In this document: positions 18,104 through 42,484 of the stretch, piece after piece
Position numbering within the stretch: the stretch's first letter is position 1
Layout of the letters: each line of letters starts with the position of its first letter
Origin: an uncultured Bordetella sp.
Lineage (GTDB): Bacteria; Pseudomonadota; Gammaproteobacteria; Burkholderiales; Burkholderiaceae_C
Direction: 5' to 3'
Length of the DNA stretch: 47,111 nucleotides
Assembly: GCA_964409495.1 (NCBI GenBank)
Contig: CAYPDO010000002.1
Location: 2,001 to 49,111, forward strand
Position numbers and translations under genes: made by a program
The notes under the pieces: generated by a model
What the model saw: only the letters and a program-made list of their open reading frames with translations
Database searches by the model: none
Told to the model about the DNA's origin: nothing

Positions 18104-18424
18104 TCAGCTGGCGCGCACCACGATCTGGTTCTTCACCAGCTTGACGCCCTTGATGCCGCGGGCCAGGGTCTCGGCGGTGCTGCGCTCGCCGCCGCTCTTG
18201 GCGAAGCCCGACAACATGACCTCGCCGTTGAGCGTCTCGACCTTGATCGACACGGCGTCGACGGCGTTGTTCTCGACGAACTTGGCCTTCACCGCGGTGG
18301 TGATGCTGGCATCGTCGATGTACTCGCCGACCGAGGACTGTCCGCGCGTGACGGCGCAGCCCGGCAGCAGGGTGAGGGCGGCCACGGCGGTGACGATGGC
18401 GGCAAGGGCATGGCGGGTGAACAT
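18104..18424 (-). CDS. BON-domain lipoprotein (OsmY-like)
   Basis: Lipobox LPGC; [27 protein letters not shown] and GVK.VKN; GGAG RBS. Confidence 0.93.
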
Positions 18425-18556
18425 GGCGGGATCTCCGGTGACGGTGGCCGCCGCGGGTGCGGCTGGCCGGGTGGGCATGCCAGGCGCGATGGCCGGGCCG
18501 GGGCTCGGATGCCGCGCCGCGAAGGGCTTGCGGCGTCGTGGCGCTCCGATGGCTTC

Positions 18557-18625
18557 ACTCTAGGATCGGCTGCAGCGGCCCGGCATCGGAGAACCCGACA
18601 CGGCGCTGTAGGACAGCTACCTGCA
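18557..18625 (-). promoter_or_regulatory. Phased regulator sites plus -10 for the BON-csbD unit
   Basis: TGTAGG at 18607, CATCGG at 18584, -10 TAGAGT at 18562-18557 (same CCTAGAGTG 9-mer as the DUF1328 promoter). Confidence 0.62.
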
Positions 18626-18654
18626 CCGCGAGCCCTCGCAGCAGCGACCACCCA

Positions 18655-20100
18655 CTACCACCAGCGCTCGAACAGGCGCGCCAGCGCCTCGCGCGCGCGC
18701 TGCATCAGCGGCCGCTGCGCCCACTGCGCCGCATCCACCGCGGTGGAGCGCACCAGGTCCTGCTGGAACACCTCGGCCATGGCCGCACCGAAGCGCTCGC
18801 CGAAGACCACCGCATTGACCTCGTTGTTGGCCACGAAGCTGCGCCAGTCCATGTTGCTCGAGCCCACGGTCGAGACCACGCCATCGATCACCGCGGTCTT
18901 GGCATGCAGCACCGCGTCATCGAGCTCGTAGAGCCTGGCGCCGGCCTCGAGCAGGCGCTGGTAGTGGCTGCGCCCGGCATGCAGCACCGGCGCGAAATCG
19001 CTGACCGAGGGCAGCACCAGGCGCACGTCGACGCCGCGCTGCGCGGCCTCGCACAGCGCGTCGATCATCTCCTGGCCCGGCGCAAAGTAGGCCATCGTCA
19101 GGTGCACGCTGGTGGTCGAGGTGTCGATGGCGTGCAGCAGCATCTGGTAGATGCGGCTCTCGGCCTCGCCGGGGCCTGACGGCACGATGCGCACCACATC
19201 GGCCGCGGCGGCCGGCAGCGGCCCGGGCCGTGCCAGCGCAGGCAGCGCGCCGCGGCAGCCCTGGCTGGCCCAGGTGTCGCGCATCAGGTCTTCCAGCGCC
19301 GCCACGGCCGTGCCGCGCAGGCGCACCTGGGTGTCGCGCCAGCCGCTGCGCTGGGTGTCGGCCTCGCTGCGCACGCGCACGCGGCCGAACGAGCCCGAGG
19401 CATACACCGCGCTGATGTTGATGCCGCCGGTGAATCCGGTGGCGCGGTCAACGCTGAGGATCTTGCGGTGGTCGCGGTGCGAGATGCTCCAGTAGCCGGT
19501 GTGCGGGCTGAACGGGCTCAGCGGATTGAAGGCACAGGTGGCGATGCCGGCCGCCTTCAGCGTGGCGAGAAAGTGCCGCGGCGTGCCGATCGAGCCCAGG
19601 TCATCGTAGAGCACGGCCACGCCCACGCCCTGGGCCTTCTTGCGCACCAGCAGGGCGGCCAGGCGCTGGGCGAGTGCAGCATCGTCGATGATGTAGCTTT
19701 GCAGCAGCACGCTGTGGCGGGCCTGCGCGATGGCCGCGAACATCGCCGCAAAGCTGCGTGGCCCGTCGATCAGCAGCACGGCCTCGTTGTGCGCGTGCAG
19801 ATCCACCTCGCCAAGGGCCGCCATGGCCAGCAGGTGGCGGTTCAGGTCGTTGGCACTGCCCTGGGCACCCAGCTGCCGGATCAGCGCCTCGCGCTGGGCG
19901 GCGCCCATGCGGCCGCGGCGGCCGGTCACGTCCACCGCCCCGGCCACGCTGCGCGCCGACACGCTGGCCGGCACCGCGGTGGCGGCCAGCGCGCCCTGGC
20001 CAGCGGCGATGGCACCAATGGCGCAGCCCGACAGCAGCAGATCCAGGCCCAGGGCCGTGGCCGCGCCGGCCAGGGCCCGCAGCGGCACGGCCCGGCGCAT
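18655..20100 (-). CDS. Cardiolipin synthase (ClsB-like phospholipase D family)
   Basis: Two HKD motifs (HRKILSVD, HAKTAVID), GGINI, WRDT and VGSSNMDWRS; possible lipobox LSGC. Confidence 0.92.
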   Translation of the reverse strand: MRRAVPLRALAGAATALGLDLLLSGCAIGAIAAGQGALAATAVPASVSARSVAGAVDVTGRRGRMGAAQREALIRQLGAQGSANDLNRHLLAMAALGEVDLHAHNEAVLLIDGPRSFAAMFAAIAQARHSVLLQSYIIDDAALAQRLAALLVRKKAQGVGVAVLYDDLGSIGTPRHFLATLKAAGIATCAFNPLSPFSPHTGYWSISHRDHRKILSVDRATGFTGGINISAVYASGSFGRVRVRSEADTQRSGWRDTQVRLRGTAVAALEDLMRDTWASQGCRGALPALARPGPLPAAAADVVRIVPSGPGEAESRIYQMLLHAIDTSTTSVHLTMAYFAPGQEMIDALCEAAQRGVDVRLVLPSVSDFAPVLHAGRSHYQRLLEAGARLYELDDAVLHAKTAVIDGVVSTVGSSNMDWRSFVANNEVNAVVFGERFGAAMAEVFQQDLVRSTAVDAAQWAQRPLMQRAREALARLFERWW

Positions 20101-20672
20101 CACTCTGCGAGCATGTCGGCCAGTTCGTCGGCGTGGGCCTCCTCGTCGCTCAGGATGCCTTCGAGCAGGCGGCGCGTGGTGGGGTCCTTGTCGCCCACCA
20201 GCGCGATCATCTGGCGGTAGCTTTCCACCGCCACGCGCTCGGCCACCAGGTTGGCACGCACCATGGCCTTCAGGCCGCTGGATTCGTCGTAGCCGGCATG
20301 GCTGCGCGCCAGCAGCGTGGCGGGCGAGAAATCGGGCGCGCCACCAAGCTGCACGATGCGCGCGGCCAGCAGGTCGCCATGCGCGGCCTCCTCGTTGGCA
20401 TGCACCAGGAACTCGGCGGCAATTGCCGGCGAGGCCAGCCCGTGGGCGGTGAAGTGATGGCGCTTGTAGCGCAGCACGCACACCAGCTCGGTGGCCAGCG
20501 CGTCATTGAGCAGCTTCACGATGCTGTCGCACCAGGGGCTGTGGCGCGGCGTCAGCGCCCCATCGCCGGCCTGCTGGCGTGCGGCATCCAGCGCGCCCAT
20601 GTCCAGGGCCAGGCTGTAGTCGCCGCCCTCGCGCGGGCCATGCTGGGGGTGGTGGATCTTGTGGGCGTTCAT
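20100..20672 (-). CDS. Ferritin-like (bacterioferritin/Dps-related) protein
   Basis: LNDALATELVCVLRYKRH, HANEEAAH, RIVQLGG, AERVAVESY and EEAHADEL diiron-type motifs; TGATG coupling to the cls-like gene. Confidence 0.92.
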   Translation of the reverse strand: MNAHKIHHPQHGPREGGDYSLALDMGALDAARQQAGDGALTPRHSPWCDSIVKLLNDALATELVCVLRYKRHHFTAHGLASPAIAAEFLVHANEEAAHGDLLAARIVQLGGAPDFSPATLLARSHAGYDESSGLKAMVRANLVAERVAVESYRQMIALVGDKDPTTRRLLEGILSDEEAHADELADMLAE

Positions 20673-20746
20673 GCGGATCTCCGGAAGAAGGTGGGGGCGG
20701 GCGGCATCACCGGACTCGGCAGGTGCAGCAGCCCGGCGGTGGGGGC

Positions 20747-20814
20747 AGATTAGGGGCCGGGGCCGGGCCCAGGCATCGGCGCCGGTGGCGCCGCGCTGTA
20801 GGACGGCGCCGCAC
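20747..20814 (-). promoter_or_regulatory. Internal promoter for the ferritin-cls unit, overlapping the YihY 3' end
   Basis: TGTAGG at 20797, CATCGG at 20774, -10 TAATCT at 20752-20747; spacing identical to the BON promoter. Confidence 0.6.
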
Positions 20815-21730
20815 GGCGCGAGCCGGCGTGATGGGCATAGGCCCAGGTGAACTCGGCGCCCAGCAGGAAGATCTGCGCCGAGTAGTACACCCACACCAGG
20901 ATGGCCGCCAGCGAGCCGGCCGCCCCGAAGCCCGAGACCAGCGCGCTGTTGGCCAGGTAGGCGCCGATCAGCAGCCGGCCCACGGTGAACAGCACCGCGG
21001 TGACCAACGCACCGGTCCACACGTCGGCCCAGGCGATGCGCACGCGCGGCATCAGCTTGTAGATCATCGCGAACAGCAGGGTCACGAACACGAAGTTCAG
21101 CACCAGGTTCAGCACCGCCATCACCGTGCCCAGGTGGGCCAGCCGCGCGGCCGACCAGGCCTGCAGCGCGGCGATGGCGGCGCTGGCCAGCATCGAGACC
21201 GTCATCAGGAAGCCCAGGCCAAGGATCAGCCCGAACGACAGCAGGCGCGCACGCAGCAGCAGCCACCAGGCCTGCTGCGGCGGGGCTGGCGCCCGCCAGA
21301 TGCGGTCGAGCGCGTCCTGCAGTTCGGCCAGCACGCTGGTGGCGCCCAGCAGCGTGAGCAGCAGGCCACCCAGCGCGCCGGCCCAGCCCTCGGCCGGGCG
21401 GCTGACGCTGTCAAGCAGGCGCTGCACGGCCAGCGCCGCCTCGCTGCCGACCACATCGGTGAGCTGGCGCACGATCTCGCCACGCGCCGCATCGGCGCCG
21501 AACACCAGGCCGGCCACCGAGATCGCGATCAGCAGCAGCGGCGCCATCGAGAACAGCATGTAGTACGCCAACGCCGCGCCCATGCTGGAGGCCTTGTCGT
21601 CGACCCAGCCCCGCCATGCCGCGCGCAGCAGCGGCCCGGCGTCCATGCGGCGGCCCGGCGGCTGGGGCAGGGCTGGCGTGGCACGGACACGGACACGGGC
21701 AAGGGCGGGGGCGGGGGCGGGGGCAGGCAT
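20750..21730 (-). CDS. YihY/BrkB-family membrane protein
   Basis: GAALAYYMLFSMAPLL, ELQDALDRIW, IYKLMPR and GAAGSL..ILVWVYYSAQIFLLGAEF. Start at 21730 or 21646. Confidence 0.93.
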   Translation of the reverse strand: MPAPAPAPALARVRVRATPALPQPPGRRMDAGPLLRAAWRGWVDDKASSMGAALAYYMLFSMAPLLLIAISVAGLVFGADAARGEIVRQLTDVVGSEAALAVQRLLDSVSRPAEGWAGALGGLLLTLLGATSVLAELQDALDRIWRAPAPPQQAWWLLLRARLLSFGLILGLGFLMTVSMLASAAIAALQAWSAARLAHLGTVMAVLNLVLNFVFVTLLFAMIYKLMPRVRIAWADVWTGALVTAVLFTVGRLLIGAYLANSALVSGFGAAGSLAAILVWVYYSAQIFLLGAEFTWAYAHHAGSRRAAPSYSAAPPAPMPGPGPGP

Positions 21731-21757
21731 GGTGCGGGATGGGAAGGGCCTGGCGGC

Positions 21758-21813
21758 ATTGCAGCGCCCCGCCGCGGCCTGCCCGGTGGGCCACCCGCCC
21801 GCCGGCCTGTAGG
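21758..21813 (-). promoter_or_regulatory. Phased regulator half-sites plus -10 for YihY
   Basis: TGTAGG at 21808, GGTGGG at 21785, -10-like TGCAAT at 21763-21758. Confidence 0.55.
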
Positions 21814-21993
21814 ACGGCACCGCCCGAACGCGGTCACCCGGTCGCCGGGTCATCCGGCCACGCGTGCGCCACGTTGCTCTCGAGGGGCGCGCTCAAGTTC
21901 GGCGCCGATCGGCCGATATCACTGGTCGCGCCCGTGCGCGCTCGGCCATGGCGGCTGGCGTGGCGCGCTCAACCTCAGACCGACGGAGACGAC

Positions 21994-22353
21994 ATGGACC
22001 TCGACAAGGCCTCGCAGACGCATGGCGAATGGAAGCTCAGGCTGCGCCTGGCGATCACGAAGAAGGAGTTCGTGGACGCCCAGGTGATCGGCCGCGACGA
22101 TTGCTGCGCGCTCGGCAAGTGGCTGCACGGCGAGGCCAGGCAGCGCCATGCCGGCCTGGCCGCGCTGAGCGCCTGCGTCACCCAGCATGCGGCCTTTCAC
22201 CGCGAGGCCGGCCGGGTGGCCGGCGCCATCAATGCCGGCGACTATGTCAACGCCGAGAAGATGCTCGATGCGGGCACGCCCTACAGCAAGGCGTCGAGCG
22301 CCGTGGTCACCGCGATCCTGATGCTGAAGAAGGAAGTGGCACTGCAGGCCTGA
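21994..22353 (+). CDS. Stand-alone CZB (chemoreceptor zinc-binding) domain protein
   Basis: HGEWK, CALGKWL and HAAFH supply the 3His-1Cys zinc site; GGAG RBS. Confidence 0.9.
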   Translation: MDLDKASQTHGEWKLRLRLAITKKEFVDAQVIGRDDCCALGKWLHGEARQRHAGLAALSACVTQHAAFHREAGRVAGAINAGDYVNAEKMLDAGTPYSKASSAVVTAILMLKKEVALQA

Positions 22354-22608
22354 GGCGCCGCGGCCGGCGCACCAGCCACCCGCCAGCCACCTGCACGCAG
22401 ACCGGCAGGCCTTGTGGCCGCTGACGTTGCTGCCGAAGTGCTGGCGGGCCACCTTGTGCACAAGACCACTGGCGCAGGTCACCCAGCGCATGGGCCCGGT
22501 TCCGGCGGGCGGGTGCCGGGTGCCAGCGGACACGGTGGTCGACGCATGGCGAACGCGGCGGGCTGCCCGGCGCCGTGCATGGCAGCACAGGCGCCGGCCC
22601 ACCGGGGC

Positions 22609-22884
22609 ACGAGCTTCGACGTCATCGTCGCACCCGAAGCGCGGGCCGACCGGTGGAGGCCCTGCGACCACTTGCTTCAGCGTGCCGAGTTCGCCGAAAA
22701 CCTGAACACGGCCGAGCGCGCGCTTGAGGCCATCGAGTCGGCCATGCCGGCACGGGCCAGAACACCGATCCCTTTCCGCCAGGTGGCCGGATCGCGCAGT
22801 GGCCTGGGCCGTGCGCTGGTGATTCCGTTCGGTGCTGCCGCCATGTGCCGCAGCACAAGAGCGCCTGACCCCGGAAGGTGGTGA
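22609..22884 (+). pseudogene. Decayed RelE/ParE-family toxin gene
   Basis: (T)SFDVIVAPEARAD..LLQRAE..AERALEAIESA..TP..FR..R.LVIPFG resembles ParE-type toxins. The start codon reads ACG and the C-terminal strands are missing. Confidence 0.55.
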
Positions 22885-23008
22885 TGCTGCCCGTCCGGCA
22901 TGCATTGGCGGGTGAGGCCGCTGGATCACCGGGGCGCCTGGCCGCACAGGCGCTTGCTGCAGCAACGCGCAAGCGGGCGCTGCAACACCGCGGCTCGTTC
23001 TGCCGGCT

Positions 23009-23086
23009 TCAGCGCTTCGCGCTCACTGGGGCACCTTCAGGCTGTGCCTTCCGGTATTCGCCCTTGGGGCGGCCCGGCGGGCTCAT
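23009..23086 (-). repeat. Putative REP-like intergenic element directly after the pCL stop
   Basis: ATGAGCCCGCCGGGCCGCCCCAAGGGCGAATACCGGAAGGCACAGCCTGAAGG resembles short dispersed repeats I recall from Burkholderiales genomes; single copy in this window. Confidence 0.35.
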
Positions 23087-24342
23087 ACCCAGTCGACCAA
23101 CTTGCCTTGGGCGTTGCGCGGCAGTTCGGTGCCCATGGCGAAGGCGCGCGGGCGCTCGGCAGCGCTCAGCCGGGGCGCCAGCCAGGTGTCCAGCCGCTGG
23201 ATCAGATCGGCGGTGTCGGCGCCGGGCCTGGGCACGACGAAGGCCTTGAGCCGGGTGCTGTCGTTCACGGTCATGGGCCGCACGGCGGCTTCGGCCAGAT
23301 CGGGGTGCTGCAGCAGCACGTCGCGCACCCGGGACGGGAACACGTTGGTGCCGCCCACCTGCACGGCCTGGTCCAGGCGGCCGGCCACGCTGAAACGGCG
23401 CGGGCCGTGCCAATCCAGCGCGTCCTGCAGCGCGAATCTGCGCGGCGCGGCATGGCTCGACAGGCGCAGCAGTTCGTGGGCCTGTCCGTCAGGCCGTGTC
23501 CAGTGCGCCATCAGTTCGTAGGCGGTGGCAGGGGCGTCGCGCCAGGCGATGCCCGCGGTCTCGGAGCTGCCATACACCTGCACCAGGCGCTGCAGGCCCA
23601 GCGCGGCCAGCGCCTGCGCGGTGGCGTCGGGGCATGGCGCGGTGGACGTGGTGCCCACCACCCCGGCAGGCAAGGCGCCGGCATGGCGCACCAGCAGCGC
23701 CCAGTGCATGGGGTGGCTCACCAGCAGATCCCCCGCGGCCAGGCGCCGGGGCAGGTGGTTGACGGTGACGCGGCGCACATCCTGCACAGGCAGGTGGCCC
23801 AGTTCGGCCGGCAGCAGCACGGTGAACAGGAAGCCGTAGATGTGGTGAGCCGGCACGGCGGCCAGCACGCGGTGCAGCGGCTCGCGCTGGGCGCCGATGA
23901 ACAGGCCGGCCAGGAAGCGGATCTCCTGCTGCAGATCGGCCAGGCTGTGCGTGCAGGGCTTGGGCTGGCCGCTGCTGCCCGAGGTGCGGAAGGTCAGGCG
24001 CGCGTCGAACTGCGCCAGCGCCTGCGCGGTGATCTGCAGCCAGTCGCCGAAGGTGGTGTGCGTGGTCAGCAGGTCTTCGGCGCCGCTTTCGTGCAGGTGC
24101 AGCGCCTCGCTCAGCGCGGCCGCCACCGACATGCGCTCCAGCGAGTCCAGCCCCAGGCCGTCCTCGCCCAGCGGGGTCTGCAGCGGCCAGGGGCCGGCGG
24201 GCAGGGCTGCGGCGCCCGGGCGCAGGTGGGCGGTTTCATCCACCACCAGATCGGCCACGAAGCGCACCAGCGCGCCGGGCTGCAGATGCCAGGGCTGCGC
24301 TGCGCGCGTGGCCGCAGCCGGGGGGTGTTCCAGAAGGTCCAT
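23083..24342 (-). CDS. pcl: p-Coumaroyl-CoA ligase, PYP-activation family
   Basis: Short ANL enzyme with FRTSGSSGQPK, HHIYGFLF, YGSSETAG, GRLD..VQVGG.NVFP and LPRNAQGK; N-terminal LGLDSL segment; same strand as and downstream of pyp. Confidence 0.9.
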   Translation of the reverse strand: MDLLEHPPAAATRAAQPWHLQPGALVRFVADLVVDETAHLRPGAAALPAGPWPLQTPLGEDGLGLDSLERMSVAAALSEALHLHESGAEDLLTTHTTFGDWLQITAQALAQFDARLTFRTSGSSGQPKPCTHSLADLQQEIRFLAGLFIGAQREPLHRVLAAVPAHHIYGFLFTVLLPAELGHLPVQDVRRVTVNHLPRRLAAGDLLVSHPMHWALLVRHAGALPAGVVGTTSTAPCPDATAQALAALGLQRLVQVYGSSETAGIAWRDAPATAYELMAHWTRPDGQAHELLRLSSHAAPRRFALQDALDWHGPRRFSVAGRLDQAVQVGGTNVFPSRVRDVLLQHPDLAEAAVRPMTVNDSTRLKAFVVPRPGADTADLIQRLDTWLAPRLSAAERPRAFAMGTELPRNAQGKLVDWV

Positions 24343-24482
24343 GTCGTGCTCCGCAGGGTGGGCGGCCCGGCCATGCCGGGGCTGCGTCGGCCGGAGATGG
24401 GTGCTGCAGGTGGCAGTGTGGCCTTTACAAGGTGAGCGGCATCGTGGCAAGCGATGCCGCAAACGCCCGCAAATCGCCGCGT

Positions 24483-25931
24483 TCAGGCCGGGCAGGCGCC
24501 GGTCTGCAGGCGGCTGATCTCGGCCAGATCCAGCACGCCGATCACCCGGCTCTCGGACTGGATGAAGCCGCGCAGCCGGGCGCCATTCAGGCCCTCGGGC
24601 ACGGCATGCATGGCGGCGCGGCGCGTGCCTTCGATGCCCGACACGCGCAAGGCCATGCGCTGCCCGCTGGCCGGTTGCACGATCACATAGGCGTCCTGCG
24701 GGCGCTGGGCGTTGTGGACGTTGAACATCAGCTGCCCGGCATCGGCAACAGGGATGGCTTCGCCGCTGTCGCGGGCGGTGAGCGCCCGGCCGCGCAGGCG
24801 CAGGTGGTCGGGGCTGCGCTGCTCGATCGACTCCACGGCGCTCAAGGGCACGGCCAGCCAGCCGTCGGCCGCGTCGTCGATGGAACGCACCACCAGGTAG
24901 TCATTCACCCTGCGCAGGCTGCAGCGCACCTCCAGCCGGCTGCCGCGCCCGGCGGTCTGGGTCAGGTCCAGGCGCAGGTTGTGCATGGCGTCCATCGGCT
25001 GGTTGCGCGCATACACCACGGTGCCGTCACCGTCGTCGCTGAAGCTCAGCACGACGTCGCCGCCGTCCATGCCGATCTGGATCTGCAGGGTCACGAAGGC
25101 CGCCTGCTGCGCCGCCATGCGTTCGTCGGCGCTGCGGTTCAGGGCCGTGGCCTTCAGGGCCAGCACCCAGTCCTCGCTCAGGTTCACCAGCAGGCGCGCC
25201 ACGTCGGGCGGCAGGCAGGTCTTGCGGTCGAAACCCTGCAGTCGTGGCACCACGCGCAGCGCGGAGCCGTCCAGCGCCTTCAGCAGACGCGCCTCGAGCG
25301 CACCGCCGATGTCCTCGCCGGTCAGCACCAGGGCGCGTTCGATCTCCTCGACCACCACCTCCACGGCCTTGTCCAGCTCGCGCCGGGCGTCGGGCGCCTC
25401 GAGCTGCTTCTGCACCTGGTCCATGGCCATCAGCAGGGCCTCCACCGCGCGGTTGGCACCGTCGCTGGCGCTGCTCATGCGTTCCAGCAGGCGGCCGTTC
25501 TGCTCGGCGGCGCGGTGGGCGGTCTCGAACAGGTCGGCGCCGATCTTGTCCACCAGCAGCTGGCTGTCCACGTCCAGAAACTGGTGCAGGGTCTCCAGCA
25601 GCTCGCCCAGCAGGGCGCCGGCCACCATCAGGCCAGGCGAGGCGCCGTCCTGCATGTTCTGGTACTGCATCTGCTGGTTGCAGCGGTTCCAGATCAGCTT
25701 CAGCTCCAGCCAGGCATTGGCCAGGGCCTGGGGCAGCTCGTAGATGTCGCCATCGGGGCACATGTCGCGCAGGGCCTGCGCCACGCCCTCGATGTGGGCG
25801 AGGTAGTGGTCGGCCAGGCGCCGTGGCGCGCCCGGTCCGTCGGCCCCCATGGCGGCCAGCATCGATTCCGCCTGGCGTCCCAGGACCTGGGGATCCAGTG
25901 CGGCAAGTGCGCCTGTGAGTCTCGTCGGCAT
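24483..25931 (-). CDS. CheA-derived pseudokinase: unknown N-terminal domain, coiled coil, eroded HATPase, CheW-like domain
   Basis: ERMAAQQ..VTLQIQIGMDGGDVVLSFSDDGDG matches CheA P4 (..KRLAAGK..G.L.L....GG.I.I.V.DDG.G). The C-terminus has AVPLSAVESI, IPVAD, ALRVSGIEG and GVLDL CheW/P5 features. Confidence 0.7.
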   Translation of the reverse strand: MPTRLTGALAALDPQVLGRQAESMLAAMGADGPGAPRRLADHYLAHIEGVAQALRDMCPDGDIYELPQALANAWLELKLIWNRCNQQMQYQNMQDGASPGLMVAGALLGELLETLHQFLDVDSQLLVDKIGADLFETAHRAAEQNGRLLERMSSASDGANRAVEALLMAMDQVQKQLEAPDARRELDKAVEVVVEEIERALVLTGEDIGGALEARLLKALDGSALRVVPRLQGFDRKTCLPPDVARLLVNLSEDWVLALKATALNRSADERMAAQQAAFVTLQIQIGMDGGDVVLSFSDDGDGTVVYARNQPMDAMHNLRLDLTQTAGRGSRLEVRCSLRRVNDYLVVRSIDDAADGWLAVPLSAVESIEQRSPDHLRLRGRALTARDSGEAIPVADAGQLMFNVHNAQRPQDAYVIVQPASGQRMALRVSGIEGTRRAAMHAVPEGLNGARLRGFIQSESRVIGVLDLAEISRLQTGACPA

Positions 25932-25944
25932 AGCGTGTGGCGTG

Positions 25945-26970
25945 TCAGGCGGGAACGGCGGTCCAGCGCTTCAGGATGGCCTCGATGCGCGGCCGGGGCG
26001 CCGACAGCGCACCCCTGGACCAGACCTCGTTCAGGTCGGCCATTTCGTGGTGCGACATGGCATGGTCCACCACGTCGGCCAGGTACAGCGCCTCCGACAG
26101 GGGCTCGTGGCGCAGCGATGGCACCTGGCGGTGGTGATTGCCGATGGCCGCCACCGCGCGCTGGCCCAGTTGCCAGCGCTGTGCGGCCAGGGCGCCCAGC
26201 GGCTCGTGCGCCGCGCCCAGCAGGGCCTGGAAAAAGTCCGGCGGCAGCTCGATGCTGCGCCGGCGCGTGGCGCGCAGCACCGACAGGCGGTCGAAGACGA
26301 TGAGCTTGCCGACGTCATGCAGCAGCGCCAGGGTCATGGCCTCGTCGGGGTTGACCGACAGGGCCGGTGCCAGGCACTGCGCGATGGGGCCGGTGCGGAT
26401 CATGTGCGACCACACCTGGGCCGCCATGGCGTTGTATTGGCCGCCGGGCAGCGACAGCAGGTTGCTGGCGCAGCAGGCGGTGAGCACACCGCGGGCCTGG
26501 GTCAGGCCGATGCGGTCGAGCGCCGCCTCCATGCCGAGCACGGGTTCGCGGCCGGCGCTGAAGGCGCTGCTGTTGGCCATGCGCAGCATGGACTCCATCA
26601 GGCTGGGGTCACGCGCCAGATGGGCGACCAGGCGCGACCGCGGCAGGTTCGGGTCGTCGCACATGGCCAGCGCCTCGCGCGCCGACGCTGGCAGCTGGCG
26701 GATCAGCTCGTCGGAGTCGCTGTCCAGCAGCTCGACCAGCGCGCGGGCGTCGGGCACGCCGGGCGCATGTTCGTCGACCAGGCGGCTGAGCAGGCCGCGT
26801 TGCGCCTGCCAGTGCGCCAGCGCATCCAGCACGGGCGCCGCCGGGGCGGCCGGCCGGTCGGCACCGGCCGATGGCTCGGAATGCTGCCAATCGCGCTGCG
26901 CTTCAGGCGCCTGCTCCACAGAGCGCCGAGGCCAGCCCAACAGCCCCTTGATGAAGCGCAGCAGTTCCAT
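25945..26970 (-). CDS. Stand-alone HDOD-domain protein
   Basis: LP, DPSL...LRMANS, A..RIG, WSH and ALLHDVGKL; TGATG-coupled to the upstream gene. Confidence 0.92.
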   Translation of the reverse strand: MELLRFIKGLLGWPRRSVEQAPEAQRDWQHSEPSAGADRPAAPAAPVLDALAHWQAQRGLLSRLVDEHAPGVPDARALVELLDSDSDELIRQLPASAREALAMCDDPNLPRSRLVAHLARDPSLMESMLRMANSSAFSAGREPVLGMEAALDRIGLTQARGVLTACCASNLLSLPGGQYNAMAAQVWSHMIRTGPIAQCLAPALSVNPDEAMTLALLHDVGKLIVFDRLSVLRATRRRSIELPPDFFQALLGAAHEPLGALAAQRWQLGQRAVAAIGNHHRQVPSLRHEPLSEALYLADVVDHAMSHHEMADLNEVWSRGALSAPRPRIEAILKRWTAVPA

Positions 26971-27422
26971 CACACCGTCTCGGCCGGGTTCACGACTTCC
27001 TGGCGCAGGCTGTCGATGATGGTCAGCGCCTTCTGGTTCAGGCACTGGATCTGGTCGGGCTGCAACAGGGATTCGATGCGCTGGAAGAAGTACGAGCTGA
27101 CGCTGCCGCGCACCAGGTCGATGGGCTTGGCTTCGCCGTTGCGCATCAGGTCGTAGTTGGCCACGTCGTTGTGGCGCTGCCACTGCAGGCGCAGCTCAAG
27201 CCACAGCGAGGCGAGTGCGCCGTACAGCTCGTCGGCGTCCTCGGGGTCGCACATGGCCTCGGCCAGCGTGCGAATCTGGACGGCCGTGCTCGCCGACTCG
27301 TGCTGGACCATGCTGCGGGCATGCTCGGCGATGTCGACGGCAGCCAGGAACGCGTTCGTGCTGGCCGACACGGTGTCGGCATCGGCAATCTGGGACAGGC
27401 GTTGTGGAAGGTCGTAGCTCAT
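26970..27422 (-). CDS. Hypothetical helical protein, paralogous to the N-terminus of the CheA-like protein
   Basis: GC3-rich ORF directly after pyp; shares MC...D..EL..ALA..WLEL.L.W.R.N....Y..M..G with 24483-25931. Confidence 0.85.
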   Translation of the reverse strand: MSYDLPQRLSQIADADTVSASTNAFLAAVDIAEHARSMVQHESASTAVQIRTLAEAMCDPEDADELYGALASLWLELRLQWQRHNDVANYDLMRNGEAKPIDLVRGSVSSYFFQRIESLLQPDQIQCLNQKALTIIDSLRQEVVNPAETV

Positions 27423-27491
27423 GGATGGGTTCCGTTCTGGGGTTCTGTGGCGTGGGGGTGCTGGCGGGCCCGGTGGCCCGGTGCCTGCCGC

Positions 27492-27866
27492 TCAGGCGGC
27501 GCGCATGCTCACGAAGACCCAGTTCGAGGCCGACGGCGCATGGCGCAGCATGCGGATGCGCACGTTCGTCGGCTTCATCTTGTAGGTGAAGGTGTAGTTG
27601 AACTCGGTGTCCAGGTCGTTGCGCGCCACGCCGTCCTTGAACTTGCCGAACACCAGGCGGTTGTTCGTGCAGGCGGCCACCTGGGTGAAGAAGTTGCTGC
27701 CTTCGGCCGACGAGATGGGCACGCCGGCCATCTCGGACTCCCACTTGTTGTAGAGCTTGATGACGCCCTGGTCATCCACCTGGACAACGCCGTAGGGCTG
27801 TGCATCTGCCGTGCCGCGGTCGACGGAGGGGATCTGGGAGATGAACTGCGGTGTAACGAAAGACAT
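27492..27866 (-). CDS. pyp: Photoactive yellow protein (PAS-fold p-coumarate photoreceptor), 124 aa
   Basis: PYG...D..G.I..YN..E, NFF..VAACTN (chromophore Cys), F.YTF.Y.M.PT.V and WVFV; GGAG RBS; pcl in the same cluster. Confidence 0.93.
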   Translation of the reverse strand: MSFVTPQFISQIPSVDRGTADAQPYGVVQVDDQGVIKLYNKWESEMAGVPISSAEGSNFFTQVAACTNNRLVFGKFKDGVARNDLDTEFNYTFTYKMKPTNVRIRMLRHAPSASNWVFVSMRAA

Positions 27867-27961
27867 GGTCACTCCAAACTGTCAGAGGGGGCTTGAGGTG
27901 GAACCGGGCTGGACGTCATGCTGCTGTTCGCCGGACCGGGGGGGGTAACAACTGAACAGCG

Positions 27962-28591
27962 TCAGTTGAGCGATTGCGACACGAGCGCGTCGATCATTTC
28001 GCGCGCGCGCCGCTTTGTCGTGAGGATGTCGGCCTTGAGCTGCTCGTTTTCCTGTGCCAGGTCGTTGCGCTCTTCCAGCAGCACGGCCACCTGCTCGGTG
28101 AGGCTTTCGGCCATGCAGGCGGCTTCGCGGTGGCCCACGGTGAGGCCGGCGCCTTCTTCGTAGAACGCGGCCAGCTGGGCCTCGAACGACTGCACGGTGG
28201 CGCGCAGCGCATCGATGCCGCTTTCGGGCAGCAGGCGGCCCTGCTCGTCCAGTTCGCGCTCTTCGTACAGCGCATGCAGCTGCTGGTTCAGCCCGTCGAT
28301 GGTGGCCAGCAGGCCGTCGGCGTTGTCGGCGCCGGATTCGCGCATGGCGTAGAAGTCGGCCAGCTGCGCGGTCAGGTTCTCGACGGTCTCGCGCAGATCG
28401 GCGATCGTGCGAGCGCTCAGCCGCTGCTTGTCCTCGTAGAGCGCTGCCAGCGACTCGTCCGCAGAGAAGGACACGCTGTTGTCGCGTTCCTTGTCGGCGT
28501 AGAGACACACCAGCTGCTGTTCCAGGCTGGCCAGGGATTCCCGCAGTGACTCGATCGAATCTGCGGCCGCGTTGTGGTGTGACAGGTTCAT
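27962..28591 (-). CDS. Acidic coiled-coil protein with about six internal QL..(L/F)Y repeats
   Basis: First gene of the pyp cluster. Repeats SLEQQLVCLYADKE, SADESLAALYEDKQ, NLTAQLADFYAMRE, GLNQQLHALYEERE, SFEAQLAAFYEEGA, SLTEQVAVLLEERN. Confidence 0.85.
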   Translation of the reverse strand: MNLSHHNAAADSIESLRESLASLEQQLVCLYADKERDNSVSFSADESLAALYEDKQRLSARTIADLRETVENLTAQLADFYAMRESGADNADGLLATIDGLNQQLHALYEERELDEQGRLLPESGIDALRATVQSFEAQLAAFYEEGAGLTVGHREAACMAESLTEQVAVLLEERNDLAQENEQLKADILTTKRRAREMIDALVSQSLN

Positions 28592-28867
28592 GGGTGCGCC
28601 AGGGGTTGCGGGTTGACTTGCCCCTGACGCGAGCACTGGATGCGCTGCCGTTGACGCTGCATGCAGTCGTCATCGGTCACCGGTGAAACGCCTAGCGGTG
28701 GCCTCGAGAGGCGTACCTGCGTGATCTCGACAGATCAACGCGGGACTTGAGGCATCACCGCTGCGTTTCGATCACTTTTTCATGGTTTTGGGGCTGGGCG
28801 GCGGCGCTAGCCTTCGCGCAGAGGCGCGGCTTGCCCGCCTTGCGCCACCGCCTGCCGAACCGAGCCG

Positions 28868-29563
28868 ATGACCACCTTCCTGTCAAGCCGCGGATCCACC
28901 GAGCCGGGCCCCGCAAAGGGCGCATGGCGCCCCTTGCTGAGGACACGGCTGGTCGGCCGCGCCGAGCCCTTGTTCGTTGACGCCAGCGGCTTGCGCAGTG
29001 CGGCGTCCATCTGGAGCGGCGCGCAGGTGTGGGCCCAGCTGCTGCGGGCCCATCCCGAGGGCACCCGCGTGGTGGTGCGGCAGGCTGAGCGTCTGACCTT
29101 GCTGCAGCTGCTGGTGGCGGTGCTGTGGGACGGCCGCACGCTGCAGGTGGAGGCAGGCGCAAATGCGCCGATGCCCGGCGCCTGGTGCCTGGACGGCCGG
29201 CAGGTGATGCACGATGGCCAGGCCGTGTGCAGCCTGGGCGATGGCGGCTGGCCGGATCTGGCCGGCCCGGCGCGCATGTCCACCCTGGACATGCTGGCGT
29301 ACGCACCCGCGCACGGCGACATTGGCGTGCATGGCCGGCAGACCAGCCACGGCGAGCTGTGGCTGGCGCTGGGCGCCCCGCTGGGCCAAGCGCCGCCGGC
29401 AGGGCCCGCCGCGGCATCGCCGCTGCCGGCACCGACGTCCGAGCTTCTCGCACCCTTCGACCTGGCCTCTCTGGCCACACCGCACGATGTGCTGAACGAC
29501 GCGCTGTTGCCGCTGCTGCGCTGCACCGAAGTGTGGGAACGCGCGGCGCTGCCGGCCGCCTGA
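28868..29563 (+). CDS. Hypothetical protein, weakly resembling the N-terminal part of an AMP-binding enzyme
   Basis: GC3-rich ORF divergent from the pyp cluster. S...IW.....A..L......G.RVVV......L..LVAVLW.G recalls ANL N-termini, but no TSG P-loop is present. Confidence 0.6.
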   Translation: MTTFLSSRGSTEPGPAKGAWRPLLRTRLVGRAEPLFVDASGLRSAASIWSGAQVWAQLLRAHPEGTRVVVRQAERLTLLQLLVAVLWDGRTLQVEAGANAPMPGAWCLDGRQVMHDGQAVCSLGDGGWPDLAGPARMSTLDMLAYAPAHGDIGVHGRQTSHGELWLALGAPLGQAPPAGPAAASPLPAPTSELLAPFDLASLATPHDVLNDALLPLLRCTEVWERAALPAA

Positions 29564-29666
29564 TGCCGCCACAGCCGGTGGCTGGCGCCCCGGCCGGTGC
29601 GGCCGGGCGCCAGGGCATGGACCCCGGATGCCCGTCCTTCGGGTCGGGCCAGACGGCCGCACCTGT

Positions 29667-29726
29667 CACGTCACTCAACACGTCACTCAACACGCCACCG
29701 ATCACGCCGCATGTCACGCCGCCGGT
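29667..29726. repeat. Five degenerate 12-bp tandem repeats
   Basis: cacgtcactcaa twice, then cacgccaccgat, cacgccgcatgt and cacgccgccggt, in a convergent intergenic gap. Confidence 0.7.
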
Positions 29727-29816
29727 TGCTGGACGAGAAGCGGTTCATGAACACCGGGCGGCCTGTGCGCCGCGCACACCGCACTGCCGCGGCACCTCAG
29801 CGTGGGGGCATGGCCG

Positions 29817-32693
29817 TCAGAACGGGGGGGCGGCCCAGGCCACATCGGCCAGCGCAAAGCGCGACAGGCAGACGCAGGTGCCATCGTTCTGGTTGCCGCC
29901 AAGCAGCCAGACCAGGCCGGTCGGGGCGTCGCAGTCGAGTGCAAAGCCCACATGGTGCTTGCCGTTGGGCATGTTGACCACGACCACATCGCCTGGCTGG
30001 GGCGCGCCGGCGCGCTGTGCGGCGGCCGATGGCCACGAGATCCAGTTGCGCGCGCCTTCCGGCGTGCCGGGCAGTGTCAGCGCGCGGCCCGCGCCCTCGG
30101 CGGCGTGGCGCTTGAGCACCCAGGTCACGAAGGCACCACACCAGGCCGTGGTGTCGCCCTTGTCGCCCAGGCTGGAGCCGATGGCATCGAGGTATTCGCA
30201 CACCCGGGGGTTGCTGGTGGCGCGGCTGGCGCCCTTGGCCTCGACCTGGCCCAGCTCGCCCAGCGCCCAGTCCATCCACGGCTGGGCTTCGCGCGCCAAG
30301 GGCGTGGCGCCCGGGCTGGCAATCTGCTGCAGCAGGCCCTGGTCCACCTCGTCAAGCTGGGCCGGCTGTTCGCGCGCCATCGTGAACACCTTCCGGTTGC
30401 GGACGGGCGTGGTGGCGTCGGTCTTGTAGCGCCACAGCACGCACAGGGCGCGCAGCTCGGCGTCGAGTGTGGTGGCGGCAGGGTCCACCTTCTGACCGAA
30501 GGCGGCCATGCGCGTCTGCAGATGCTTCACCAGCAGCGGCACCATCGGGTTGGCCTCGCCACGGCGCAGCCGGCCCGATGGCAGGCCGGCGGCGGGCTGT
30601 CGTGCCTGGCTGGCCGGGCGCCCGACCAGCGCCGTGTAGGTGGCGTTGGTGAGCAGGCTGGTCTCACCCAGCCCGCGTTCGCGGCTCTGCGACAGGATGG
30701 CGGCACGCGTGGCGCTGTCCAGCTCACCCGTGGCCGGCACGCCCAGCGCCTGCTGCAGGGCCTGCACCTCGCGCACCGTGAGCTGGTCTTCGAACTCGTT
30801 GTCGGCGCCCACCACCAGCGGCAGCGGGCGGTTGCGGCCCGGTGGCCCTGCCGCGGGTGACGGCGCCGCCGCAGACGGCGACGGGGCCGGCGCCGGCAAG
30901 GGCTGGCTGCCTTCGCCCCGCAGCGCCGCATCGTCGTCCTGCCGGGCTGCGGCGCTGGCGCGAACCCGCATGACCTTGCTGAGCAGATCAAACCAGAACG
31001 GCGCGCCCAGCGACACGAAGAACGCCGAGACCAGGATGCCGGCCGCCCAGGCCAGCAAGCCGGTGGCGCCACCGTACTGCATCCGGAAGGCCGGCACGCC
31101 GAGCTGCGGGATGGACCGGGCCTGGCCGGTGCACAGCCAGCCCGTCCACGACGCGCTGTCGGCGGGCGGCTGGCTGCAGCCCAGGCTGGCGGCCGAGGCC
31201 GCAGCAGCCGGCTGGGCATCGCACACCTCTACGGCACGGCAGAACTGCGCATGGCGGTTGGCAACGGTCAGGCCGATCGGCAGCCGGTTCACCGGGTTCT
31301 GCCTGGCCCGCACGCAGCGCTGCAACGCGGCCAGCGATGTGGGCGTGGTGCGCGCGCAGTCGTCGTACGCCTGGGGGTCGGCGCTGAACAGCTGGCGTGC
31401 ATTCAGGCCGGCTTCGGCCGTGCGCACCAGGGTCTGCAAGGCCGACTTGGTGTCCTCCAGGGCCACGGCGGCCTCGCGCATCAGGCGCTGGCTTTCGGCC
31501 TGGCTGCCCACGCCGCTGGCCGCCCGCACCCAGGCCGAGATCTCGGTGACGCAGCGCTGGGCGTCACGCAGCGCGCGTGCCGGCTCGATCGGCCCGCCAT
31601 CGTCGCCACGCGCCTTCGGCGCGCTGGCGGACGCCGCCAGGCGCTCGATGGCCTCGCCACGCACGGCCGTCTCGATGCGCGACAGCATCATCGGCAGCAC
31701 CGTCTGCCAGGTGTCGGCATTCGACAGGTAGCGACCTTCCTGTTCGCTGCCCCCGGCAGGCTCGCTGGCGCGCTTGGGCAGCAGCTGCGCTTCCACGTCC
31801 AGCCCGCACAGCGCAAAGTCGCTGGCATAAAAGCCATAGGCCCGGATGGCCTTGTCGCGGTCAAAGGCGGTGCGCAGCCGCGCGATCGCATCCACCATGC
31901 GCGAGACCGCACGCGTGGCGGGATCGACCACCACCGCCACCGTGCCGGGTGCGGCCGGCACCGAGGCGGCAGTGGCCGCCGCGGCGGCGCGGGCGTCCTG
32001 CTCGCGCACATCCTGCACGCCTTCGGCAAGGCGCACGAAAGACCGGCGCAGGTCGGCATCCTCACCAAAGGCCGACGCAATGCGGCCGGCATCGACGTTC
32101 AGCAGCGCGCACACCAGCACCGCGATCCAGAAGCCCACCATCGAGCTGCGGCGCTTCCACCAGCCGCGGGCACGCTCGCCGATGGCGCTGTACCAGCCGC
32201 AGATGGCGGTCTCGAAGCCGCTCCAGTCGCCCTCGTGGCCCTGCAGCAGGCCGCGCAGTGCCCGTGCCAGCCGGCTGCGCGAACTCTGGGCGGGGGCGGC
32301 CTTCTCGAGCTCGTCGACAAAGCTGGCGGGCGTGAAACCGTCTTCGCGCGGCGGGCGGCCTGTCGCGCTCAGTTCCATCAGCAGCGCGCGGGTGAACAGC
32401 TCGGGCGGGATCTCCGACGGCCCCTCGGCACTGAGGCCCCACCAGTGGCCGGGCCGCGCCGCCTTGGCCGTGTACAGCGCGCCCAGCAGCGGGTTGTCCA
32501 GCAGCTGCTCGACCAGCCCGCGGTCGCCCATCAGCGCTTCCTCCAGCATGCGGTGCAGGTTGTGCACCCGGCCGGCGCGCAGGTTGCCGTGCCAGCTTTC
32601 CTGCACCCGCATCACCAGCAGTGACAGCAGCGCGTAGGTCAGTGCAAACGCGATGGCGATGTCGATGAAGACGTTGTCGAGCAGACTGTCCAT
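29817..32693 (-). CDS. Multi-TM membrane protein fused to a PG-binding-like segment and a C-terminal TIGR02594/CHAP-like peptidoglycan hydrolase
   Basis: TM segments at the N-terminus, at GFWIAVLVCALLNVD and at GILVSAFFVSLGAPFWFDLL; VQALQQALG..ATG.LD.AT..AI; PWM..A..ELG..E, AWCGAFV.W, HVGF and LGGNQ. Confidence 0.8.
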   Translation of the reverse strand: MDSLLDNVFIDIAIAFALTYALLSLLVMRVQESWHGNLRAGRVHNLHRMLEEALMGDRGLVEQLLDNPLLGALYTAKAARPGHWWGLSAEGPSEIPPELFTRALLMELSATGRPPREDGFTPASFVDELEKAAPAQSSRSRLARALRGLLQGHEGDWSGFETAICGWYSAIGERARGWWKRRSSMVGFWIAVLVCALLNVDAGRIASAFGEDADLRRSFVRLAEGVQDVREQDARAAAAATAASVPAAPGTVAVVVDPATRAVSRMVDAIARLRTAFDRDKAIRAYGFYASDFALCGLDVEAQLLPKRASEPAGGSEQEGRYLSNADTWQTVLPMMLSRIETAVRGEAIERLAASASAPKARGDDGGPIEPARALRDAQRCVTEISAWVRAASGVGSQAESQRLMREAAVALEDTKSALQTLVRTAEAGLNARQLFSADPQAYDDCARTTPTSLAALQRCVRARQNPVNRLPIGLTVANRHAQFCRAVEVCDAQPAAAASAASLGCSQPPADSASWTGWLCTGQARSIPQLGVPAFRMQYGGATGLLAWAAGILVSAFFVSLGAPFWFDLLSKVMRVRASAAARQDDDAALRGEGSQPLPAPAPSPSAAAPSPAAGPPGRNRPLPLVVGADNEFEDQLTVREVQALQQALGVPATGELDSATRAAILSQSRERGLGETSLLTNATYTALVGRPASQARQPAAGLPSGRLRRGEANPMVPLLVKHLQTRMAAFGQKVDPAATTLDAELRALCVLWRYKTDATTPVRNRKVFTMAREQPAQLDEVDQGLLQQIASPGATPLAREAQPWMDWALGELGQVEAKGASRATSNPRVCEYLDAIGSSLGDKGDTTAWCGAFVTWVLKRHAAEGAGRALTLPGTPEGARNWISWPSAAAQRAGAPQPGDVVVVNMPNGKHHVGFALDCDAPTGLVWLLGGNQNDGTCVCLSRFALADVAWAAPPF

Positions 32694-32708
32694 GCTGGGC
32701 GGCTCCGG

Positions 32709-38865: not shown

Positions 38866-38943
38866 GTTCAGTTCCTGGTTGGAAGATTGGGAAGGTAGGA
38901 AAGCGGGCCAAATGGGTCCAGGCCAGGCTGACCCGGCCGGCCT

Positions 38944-38990
38944 CACCCCCCTTGGCAGACCCGGCGCGCAGCGACAGGACTTGGGGGGTG
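38944..38990. repeat. Inverted repeat (REP-like hairpin)
   Basis: CACCCCCC (38944-38951) and GGGGGGTG (38983-38990), immediately after the stop at 38994. Confidence 0.4.
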
Positions 38991-42419: not shown

Positions 42420-42465
42420 TTGACACGTCCCGGCCTTCGTCCTATTTCCTCTGATACTCATTTTC
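42420..42465 (+). promoter_or_regulatory. Possible sigma70 promoter with a partial Fur-box-like site
   Basis: TTGACA at 42420-42425. TGATACTCATTTTC at 42452-42465 matches 12 of 14 bases of TGATAATCATTATC. The -10 is weak. Confidence 0.3.
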
Positions 42466-42484
42466 TTCTGAATTGGGCCATATC

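What the first reader, a model, noticed from the sequence alone, without database searches (positions are those of the whole stretch)
23083..28591. Candidate undescribed light-signalling system: PYP, repeat scaffold, new domain, HDOD and pseudo-CheA
Seen: six co-oriented genes, namely a repeat coiled-coil protein, pyp, a 150-aa unknown, HDOD (TGATG-coupled), a CheA-derived protein (13-nt gap) and pcl. Four signalling-type genes are therefore interleaved with the photoreceptor and its chromophore ligase. There is no MCP, CheY, Hpt, active kinase or DNA-binding protein in the cluster. Established: PYP binds p-coumarate as a Cys thioester loaded by pCL, and downstream partners are unknown for most stand-alone PYPs. 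Inference: a phosphorylation-independent relay in which light-state PYP acts through protein contacts on a CheW-like docking protein and an HDOD output, possibly modulating chemosensory arrays or motility. I do not recognise this architecture, but novelty requires a search.
Basis: partly seen in the sequence, partly recalled or inferred. Interest (0 to 1): 0.9.

Follow-up and report, generated by a model that had tools for sequence, protein, structure and literature searches.

The report
Candidate adaptor module for PYP photoreceptors
A blue-light sensor gene (PYP) sits in a conserved gene cluster with an uncharacterised helical domain that is also fused to a kinase-dead copy of the chemotaxis protein CheA, which likely makes that domain the missing link between this kind of light sensor and the cell's steering machinery.

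Summary
The six co-oriented genes are real and under purifying selection. PYP keeps Tyr42, Glu46 and Cys69. The 482-aa gene is CheA P3-P4-P5 lacking the Hpt, N-box and ATP lid. Elsewhere it is fused to an MCP signalling domain or to the upstream protein's repeats. PYP lies upstream of U in 41 of 48 related loci. In 301 Gemmatimonadota genomes, the 5 with this PYP clade are exactly the 5 with U. HDOD is missing in some relatives, and a sensor-less MCP replaces the pseudo-CheA in others. Best reading (inferred, about 0.5): light-state PYP docks on U domains, which couple it to chemosensory arrays encoded elsewhere. No binding was shown: the complex predictor was unavailable. Two surveys list this neighbourhood in supplements as hypothetical genes, without interpretation in the text I read. 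Verdict: new variant of a known kind, giving a testable candidate partner for stand-alone PYP.

The parts
27962..28591 (-). Acidic repeat coiled-coil protein (CC, 209 aa): about 6 repeats of LxxQLxxLYxE[RK]E; predicted scaffold
   Evidence: No family over its cut-off; 120 homologues, repeat number varies; upstream of pyp in 32 of 41 PYP-bearing loci, 8 cut by the contig end, 1 truly lacking it; the same repeat is fused behind a U domain in P0286, P0320, P0322; pI 4.4
27492..27866 (-). Photoactive yellow protein (124 aa from the ATG), clade-B type; Tyr42, Glu46, Cys69 and Met100 kept; T50A, R52V, P68A
   Evidence: TIGR02373; alignment to H. halophila PYP structures E 6e-24; Y, E and C invariant in 28 of 28 system PYPs; the S. 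natans orthologue is placed in clade B by PMC9664959 Data Set S3; lowest dN/dS of the six genes, 0.05-0.18; pI 8.8
26970..27422 (-). Stand-alone U domain (150 aa): all-helical bundle with motif D-x2-E-L-Y-x6-W-L-E-L-R-x2-W-x-R-x-N-x4-Y; candidate PYP-receiving module
   Evidence: AlphaFold2 pLDDT 92.9; no clear fold match; no consistent Pfam or NCBIfam match; 314 representatives at E <= 1e-3; homologous to the N-terminus of the pseudo-CheA (BLASTP 37%, E 1e-6; HHalign 97.9%); pI 4.5
25945..26970 (-). HDOD protein (341 aa) with a basic amphipathic N-terminal helix, a Pro/Ala-rich linker and a full HD metal-ligand set (H189, H218, D219, H255, H279, H280)
   Evidence: PF08668; these six ligands invariant in 14 of 14 aligned orthologues, D302 in 13 of 14; basic N-terminus in 12 of 14 rows, the other two probably start-truncated; absent from 7 loci
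24483..25931 (-). Pseudo-CheA (482 aa): U domain (about residues 4-136), helical hairpin (P3-like), degenerate ATPase fold (P4), CheW-like P5
   Evidence: AlphaFold2 pLDDT 87.1; Foldseek to CheA P3-P4-P5, 6s1k_A E 4e-18 and 1b3q_A E 1e-17; HHalign to the genome's own CheAs 97%, E 9e-11; N-box in 0 of 34 and G2 box in 0 of 34 family members, DDG-like G1 in 27 of 34; G1-to-G3 stretch about 48 residues shorter than in the genome's CheA
25524..25922 (-). Second U domain, forming the N-terminus of the pseudo-CheA in the place of CheA's P1/P2
23083..24342 (-). p-coumarate:CoA ligase (pCL) for loading the PYP chromophore
   Evidence: TIGR02372 E 6e-97, AMP-binding and AMP-binding_C; role from PMC9664959
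28868..29563 (+). Divergent 231-aa gene outside the finding: N-terminal half of a second AMP-binding ligase family that is full-length in other lineages of this system
   Evidence: 64-80% identical and in the same place in 7 of 7 six-gene loci; tblastn E 1e-9 to 1e-12 to the 460-500 aa ORFs that Pfam calls AMP-binding; no Pfam hit itself

Best explanation
The cluster encodes a PYP blue-light sensor with its chromophore ligase plus an adaptor set built on one uncharacterised helical domain (U), which likely receives the signal from light-activated PYP and likely passes it to chemosensory arrays encoded elsewhere in the genome. Shown: PYP has its chromophore residues; U occurs free and fused to the N-terminus of a CheA that lacks Hpt, N-box and ATP lid but keeps the CheW-like P5 domain; U and this PYP clade co-occur; relatives swap the pseudo-CheA for a sensor-less MCP. 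Established for the families: pCL loads p-coumarate on Cys69, and light drives the partly unfolded pB signalling state (PMC9664959); CheA P5 and CheW build arrays with MCP tips (own knowledge). Inferred: (1) basic PYP binds acidic U domains in a light-dependent way; (2) the pseudo-CheA enters or competes for array sites through P5, and possibly pairs with a true CheA through P3, so that it changes the activity of a real kinase without phosphorylating anything itself; (3) free U copies titrate or relay PYP, and the repeat protein clusters or localises them; (4) HDOD is an optional membrane-attached accessory. The likely output is a light response in motility or surface behaviour.
For: Co-occurrence: in one sample of 301 Gemmatimonadota genomes, the 5 with this PYP clade (E <= 4e-57) are the same 5 that have U, with the genes within about 1.2 kb. 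The 12 genomes with only distant PYP-like proteins (E >= 9e-30) have no U. PYP lies upstream of U in 41 of 48 loci. The system's PYPs form one branch, 99/97 (33 rows against 26). The smallest version seen (L138) keeps only PYP, U and a ligase. Fusions: U is N-terminal in 40 of 40 fusions classified among the best 150 representatives (37 to CheA-like P4 or P4+P5, 3 to CC repeats), and it is also fused to an MCP signalling domain (P0257). That is the position of an input domain. In L033 and L140 a 236-238 aa sensor-less MCPsignal gene sits where the pseudo-CheA otherwise sits. All 5 of 5 other carriers tested have MCPs and CheW-domain proteins, and 5 of 5 tested have flagellin-domain genes; the host genome has 16 CheW-domain matches, including true CheAs. 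Purifying selection holds on all genes. Precedent: R. capsulatus PYP binds the acidic product of its adjacent gene only after illumination, pI 9.4 against 3.9 (10.1101/2021.06.01.446672); here the values are 8.8 and 4.5. Clade-B PYPs often neighbour sensor-less chemoreceptors (PMC9664959).
Against: No physical or expression evidence was obtained. Four loci (L009, L010, L013, L029) carry a lone U paralogue with no PYP in view (0.5-10 kb seen upstream), so U can persist without an adjacent PYP. Gene context could not be checked for most of the 314 U representatives. The 5 co-occurring genomes are kin and share one cassette, so they are not independent events. L138 has no chemosensory gene beside PYP and U. 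The pseudo-CheA P5 scores only 32.6 bits on CheW, so it may no longer fit arrays. The cassette is rare (2 of 58 genomes in the genus, 0 of 400 sampled in the family), so it is an accessory trait. The U-CC fusions allow that U binds the repeats rather than PYP.
Confidence: 0.5

Rival explanations
1. PYP, U and the repeat protein form a light-controlled assembly whose output is the HDOD protein acting as a metal-dependent phosphohydrolase or adaptor, for example on a nucleotide messenger or a regulator; the pseudo-CheA only anchors it.
For: Five His and one Asp are invariant in 14 of 14 HDOD orthologues, the ligand count described for the di-iron HDOD structure 3HC1 (PMC12075610). HDOD is translationally coupled to U. 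It stays when the pseudo-CheA is replaced (L012, L033, L140).
Against: HDOD is absent from 7 loci that keep PYP, CC, U and the pseudo-CheA, and from L138. No U-HDOD fusion appeared among the 84 U-family proteins scanned with Pfam.
Confidence: 0.2
2. The repeat coiled-coil protein, not U, binds PYP; U domains bind the repeats, so the path runs PYP to CC to U to pseudo-CheA or MCP.
For: CC is the gene directly upstream of pyp in 32 of the 33 loci where this can be judged by profile; it is acidic; U-CC fusions exist.
Against: L138 keeps PYP and U without CC. CC repeat number varies and does not track U copy number.
Confidence: 0.15
3. U is a small-molecule or chromophore-handling domain (binding p-coumarate or coumaroyl-CoA, or chaperoning apo-PYP), so the cluster couples chromophore supply or a chemical cue, rather than the PYP light state, to chemotaxis proteins.
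For: A cluster of polar and aromatic residues is nearly invariant (W81 100%, N85 98%, E117 95%, S110 91%, Y90 88% of 129). A second U paralogue sits beside the ligase or ammonia lyase in Gemmatimonas loci (L009, L011, L029, L034).
Against: PYP loading is reported to need only TAL and pCL (PMC12826048). Tandem arrays of 2-4 U domains ahead of the pseudo-CheA (L037-L046) fit avidity for a protein better.
Confidence: 0.12
4. The genes are a decaying remnant of a chemotaxis operon that happens to lie next to pyp.
For: The CheA is degenerate, the divergent ligase is truncated, and the distribution is patchy.
Against: dN/dS 0.16-0.35 for U and the pseudo-CheA; gene order kept across two named phyla and a third lineage at 21-35% identity of the pseudo-CheA.
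Confidence: 0.03

Closest known systems
Rhodobacter capsulatus PYP with PYP-binding protein (PBP, rcc01067)
   Same: Stand-alone PYP; partner encoded by the adjacent gene; small (142 aa against 150 aa) and acidic against a basic PYP; light-dependent binding shown there (10.1101/2021.06.01.446672, passages).
   Different: PBP is predicted to have N-terminal helices and beta-sheets; U is all-helical. No chemotaxis fusion was mentioned for PBP in the passages read.
CheA class-II histidine kinase (T. maritima 1B3Q; E. coli core unit 6S1K)
   Same: P3-P4-P5 fold and order; G1 'DDG' and P5 motifs kept.
   Different: No Hpt histidine, no N-box Asn, ATP lid and G2 box deleted; U replaces P1/P2; no cheY, cheB or cheR gene recognised in the cluster.
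MCP-PYP fusions and clade-B PYPs beside sensor-less chemoreceptors (Leptospira); sensory rhodopsin-Htr transducer logic
   Same: A photoreceptor coupled to chemosensory array components (PMC9664959; PMC12826048); one branch of this system uses a sensor-less MCP.
   Different: Here a separate adaptor domain is interposed, and in most loci the array component is a dead CheA rather than an MCP.
Rhodocista centenaria Ppr-CheW interaction
   Same: A PYP-containing sensor reaches the chemotaxis pathway by a kinase-fold protein binding CheW (PMC2993699, abstract).
   Different: Ppr is a PYP-phytochrome-kinase fusion and binds CheW in an ATP-dependent way; here PYP is free and the kinase fold lacks the ATP-binding motifs.
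HDOD proteins (P. aeruginosa SadB; G. sulfurreducens 3HC1)
   Same: HDOD domain linked to motility or biofilm control; SadB works as an adaptor (PMC12075610, passages).
   Different: SadB has lost most metal ligands, whereas this protein keeps five His and an Asp; it has an amphipathic N-terminal helix instead of a YbaK-like domain.

Membership tests
PYP family (Xing 2022) | Cys69 for the thioester, with Tyr42 and/or Glu46 | tested here: met
   Y39, E43, C66 align with Y42, E46, C69; invariant in 28 of 28
PYP family (Xing 2022) | TIGR02373 curated cut-off | tested here: not met
   103.6 bits against 143.05; the model covers only 20% of PYP homologues (PMC9664959), and the S. natans orthologue is also listed '< cutoff'
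PYP family (Xing 2022) | Binds p-coumarate and photocycles | not testable with these tools
   Needs spectroscopy; pCL is in the cluster; no TAL found in the 69%-complete genome, but lyases lie in related loci
CheA histidine kinase | P3-P4-P5 architecture with a C-terminal CheW-like domain | tested here: met
   Foldseek E 4e-18; HHalign 97%; PF01584; relative P0318 keeps a Pfam H-kinase_dim match
CheA histidine kinase | Hpt (P1) domain with phospho-accepting His | tested here: not met
   No Hpt motif in 147 U-family representatives; U against a 26-sequence P1 alignment, HHalign 0.4%; no invariant His in U
CheA histidine kinase | N-box Asn, ATP lid and G2 box | tested here: not met
   0 of 34 with the N-box, 0 of 34 with G2; lid region about 48 residues shorter
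CheA histidine kinase | Binds CheW and MCP tips in arrays | not testable with these tools
   No interaction data obtained
Hpt fold (as ancestor of U) | Structural match to Hpt four-helix bundles | tested here: inconclusive
   Best structural matches are generic helical bundles, Z <= 9.2 at rmsd 4-5 A; Foldseek none at E <= 0.001
RseA/MucA anti-sigma N-terminal domain (as relative of U) | Profile homology to RseA_N | tested here: not met
   Weak PDB hits at E 0.18-0.36; HHalign score 10.8 against a shuffled median of 10.5 and maximum of 18.2
HDOD / HD superfamily | HDOD profile and HD metal ligands | tested here: met
   PF08668 106.9 bits; H189, H218, D219, H255, H279, H280 invariant
HDOD / HD superfamily | Hydrolase activity or substrate | not testable with these tools
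   No assay possible
R. capsulatus PBP family | Sequence or structure homology of U to PBP | not tested
   PBP sequence not available through the tools; predicted secondary structures differ
4-coumarate:CoA ligase, PYP-linked (TIGR02372) | Profile match over the full model | tested here: inconclusive
   324.9 bits against a cut-off of 334.7, positions 20-385 of 386; next family 72 bits

The most novel reading that the evidence does not exclude
U is a dedicated soluble phototransducer domain for a branch of PYPs: light-state PYP docks on it, and a U-tipped kinase-dead CheA acts as a light-switched subunit of chemoreceptor arrays. This would be a way to wire a photoreceptor into chemotaxis at the kinase layer rather than through a receptor.
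Probability: 0.3. Interest if true: 0.88.

Novelty: new variant of a known kind. Interest (0 to 1): 0.72.

Why it matters
PYP is a model photoreceptor, yet both recent surveys state that the partners of single-domain PYPs are largely unknown (PMC9664959; PMC12826048). This cluster names one small, soluble, confidently modelled domain as the candidate partner and gives its likely route to behaviour. Two named cultured species carry the cluster according to those surveys' supplements (Sphaerotilus natans, Gemmatimonas phototrophica), so a light/dark pull-down is straightforward. If confirmed, it would add a domain family, a selected kinase-dead CheA acting as an adaptor, and a small light-switchable protein pair of possible optogenetic use.

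Tried and rejected
U as a degenerate Hpt: a by-eye register match was not supported by HHalign against 26 CheA P1 domains (0.4%), and no Hpt is among the 50 listed structural matches, which does not exclude a remote link. U as an RseA-like anti-sigma domain: rejected against 100 shuffles. Fold searches of the U model gave only generic helical bundles; the ESM Atlas gave no usable hit for P0023 and only scores <= 0.79 and TM <= 0.46 by query for P0313. U in viral contigs: none; P0320 in plasmids: none. Co-transcription: the one RNA run offered holds 7% of the words; its contigs do not cover pyp, and one 262-nt contig crosses the HDOD/pseudo-CheA junction, which shows no single transcript. No sigma-70-like promoter and no terminator above chance in 22500-29800. 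No aromatic ammonia lyase in G000, which is only 69% complete. Taxonomy and context of distant U proteins: 20 looked up; one names a taxon (Bacteroidota MAG) and no gene context could be fetched. Whether the 'None' genes beside Leptospira, Salinibacter and Rubrivirga PYPs in Data Set S3 are U or U-CC proteins could not be tested. The family-wide and phylum-wide genome searches scored only 10-14 candidates per genome, so weak matches may have been missed.

Full report
1. Observation. The six genes are present on the - strand as described, with gaps of 95, 69, -1 (TGATG), 13 and 140 nt. Family scans gave PYP (TIGR02373, E 7e-30, below cut-off), HDOD (E 1e-30), a CheW domain at residues 355-473 of the 482-aa protein, and pCL (TIGR02372, E 6e-97). 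The 209-aa and 150-aa proteins match no family over its cut-off. PYP keeps Tyr42, Glu46, Cys69 and Met100 and has Ala at position 50, which PMC12826048 gives as the family consensus with a trend to red shift. Against four orthologous loci, dN/dS is 0.05-0.35 for all six genes and lowest for PYP.

2. The 482-aa protein is a kinase-dead CheA. Its AlphaFold2 model (pLDDT 87) matches CheA P3-P4-P5 best (6s1k_A E 4e-18, 1b3q_A E 1e-17). HHalign to the genome's own three CheAs gives 97% (I saw the alignment from about residue 255 onward). The G1 'DDG' remains in 27 of 34 family members; the N-box and the G2 box remain in 0 of 34. The stretch holding the ATP lid is about 48 residues shorter than in the genome's CheA. 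There is no Hpt histidine. 'Kinase-dead' is inferred from these motifs, not assayed.

3. It is homologous to residues 4-136 of the pseudo-CheA (HHalign 97.9% between the stand-alone and CheA-like alignments). It models as a helical bundle (pLDDT 93) without a clear structural relative. It has no consistent Pfam or NCBIfam match among 60, 84 and 129 members scanned. Links to Hpt and RseA were tested and not supported. A 60-sequence profile found 314 representatives at E <= 1e-3. Among the 150 listed: 86 are single U domains, 5 are tandem U, 37 are fused to a CheA-like P4 or P4+P5, 3 to the CC repeat, and 19 have an unassigned tail, one of which is an MCP signalling domain. U is N-terminal in all 40 classified fusions. 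The U-CC fusions tie the repeat protein to the same module.

4. Conservation and variation. I mapped 48 loci chosen by U (44; several are near-identical copies). PYP lies upstream of U in 41. Three others end within 150 bp upstream of U, and four hold a lone U paralogue without PYP in view. The full six-gene order occurs in 7 loci, whose named members are Burkholderiales or Pseudomonadota records. Gemmatimonas loci run CC-PYP-U-HDOD-pseudoCheA with a lyase and a different ligase. A third, unassigned group has CC-PYP-(U)2-4-pseudoCheA and, where the contig extends far enough, lyase and ligase genes, but no HDOD (7 loci). In L033 and L140 (and L012, a near-copy of L033) a short sensor-less MCP replaces the pseudo-CheA. 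L138 keeps only PYP, U and the ligase. As a converse test, the same 301 Gemmatimonadota genomes were searched with U and with PYP: 5 have U, the same 5 have this PYP clade, and 12 with only distant PYP-like proteins have no U. These are kin sharing one cassette, so this shows tight linkage, not independent origins. The system's PYPs form one branch (99/97; no clade-A or Leptospira rows were included). The cassette is rare: 2 of 58 genomes in the host genus and 0 of 400 sampled in the family, which suggests horizontal spread; direction was not tested. The divergent gene at 28868-29563 is the N-terminal half of the ligase family used in the other lineages.

5. Mechanism. The constant pair is PYP and U, and the variable partner is always an array component (dead CheA or bare MCP), with U at the input position. 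I therefore infer that lit PYP binds U and that the U-tipped pseudo-CheA modulates a true Che system in trans. The host has true CheAs and flagellins, and 5 of 5 other carriers tested have MCPs and CheW proteins. The charge pattern (PYP pI 8.8, U 4.5, CC 4.4) resembles the R. capsulatus PYP-PBP pair, but this is circumstantial. HDOD is optional. It keeps five His and an Asp, the ligand count of the di-iron HDOD structure described in PMC12075610, so it may be an enzyme; this is the main rival. No binding, expression or phenotype was shown: the complex predictor was unavailable and the RNA data were inconclusive.

6. Prior knowledge. PMC9664959 (main text parts 1-3 of 7; Data Set S3 searched by term and parts 15 and 17 read) lists the S. 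natans neighbourhood as AMP-binding, CheW, HDOD, None, PYP, None and the G. phototrophica one as lyase, None, HDOD, None, PYP, None. The text I read does not discuss them. PMC12826048 (parts 1-5 of 8; supplements searched by term) has 0 occurrences of HDOD or CheW in the main text and lists the G. phototrophica operon as hypothetical proteins, one similar to CheW. Five literature searches listed no paper that describes the U domain or a PYP-linked pseudo-CheA. The library lacks most subscription journals, and the 2012 review of PYP gene contexts that both surveys cite was not seen. I read passages of 10.1101/2021.06.01.446672 and PMC12075610 and the abstract of PMC2993699.

7. Verdict. The cluster is real, conserved and not interpreted in the literature I could search. 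It works like photoreceptor-transducer coupling to chemosensory arrays, but its kinase-fold protein fails CheA membership and its key domain belongs to no family in the libraries scanned. I rate it a new variant of a known kind, interest 0.72. The PYP-U interaction is the decisive untested step.

Noticed in passing
window 28868-29563 (+): Truncated second ligase kept at 64-80% identity in 7 of 7 six-gene loci although pCL is present; in L021 an aromatic ammonia lyase follows it on the same strand. It may keep a non-catalytic role.
   Followed up: partly
G000:C439:2055-2390 (L064); L021:2245-2625: A second, distant PYP-like gene in the host genome (Y, E and C kept); in L021 a similar one lies about 7 kb from the cluster.
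   Followed up: partly
window 21997-22353 (+): Stand-alone CZB (chemoreceptor zinc-binding) protein of 118 aa, convergent with the cluster's 3' end; not seen as a conserved neighbour.
   Followed up: no
window 18104-21853 (-): Co-oriented BrkB/YihY membrane protein, ferritin-like protein, phospholipase D-like protein and BON protein, resembling a general stress group.
   Followed up: no
window 29817-35668 (-): Run of large genes: a 958-aa protein with no Pfam hit, a trypsin-like peptidase fused to a cell-wall hydrolase (32709-34250) and a 473-aa unknown.
   Followed up: no
window 35902-37551 (-) and 37603-38946 (-): Beta-lactamase-fold serine hydrolase (549 aa) and a pectinacetylesterase-like protein.
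   Followed up: no
window 40001-41000 and 42001-43000: G+C falls to 0.61 and 0.59 against about 0.72 elsewhere, possibly foreign DNA.
   Followed up: no
L010:9989-10387; L009, L013, L029: Lone U paralogue without PYP in view; in L010 it lies between purA and a dapA-like gene, the site that holds the whole cluster in related Gemmatimonas loci, suggesting deletion remnants.
   Followed up: partly
L038:5898-8347; L039:11302-11885; L046:2523-6728: In the HDOD-less lineage, ORFs that look like MCP and CheW genes lie next to the cluster (judged from translations, not scanned).
   Followed up: no
P0221, P0224, P0225, P0227, P0236, P0244 and similar: U fusions of 300-350 aa that keep a P4-like part but lack the CheW-like domain, a further step of CheA reduction.
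   Followed up: no
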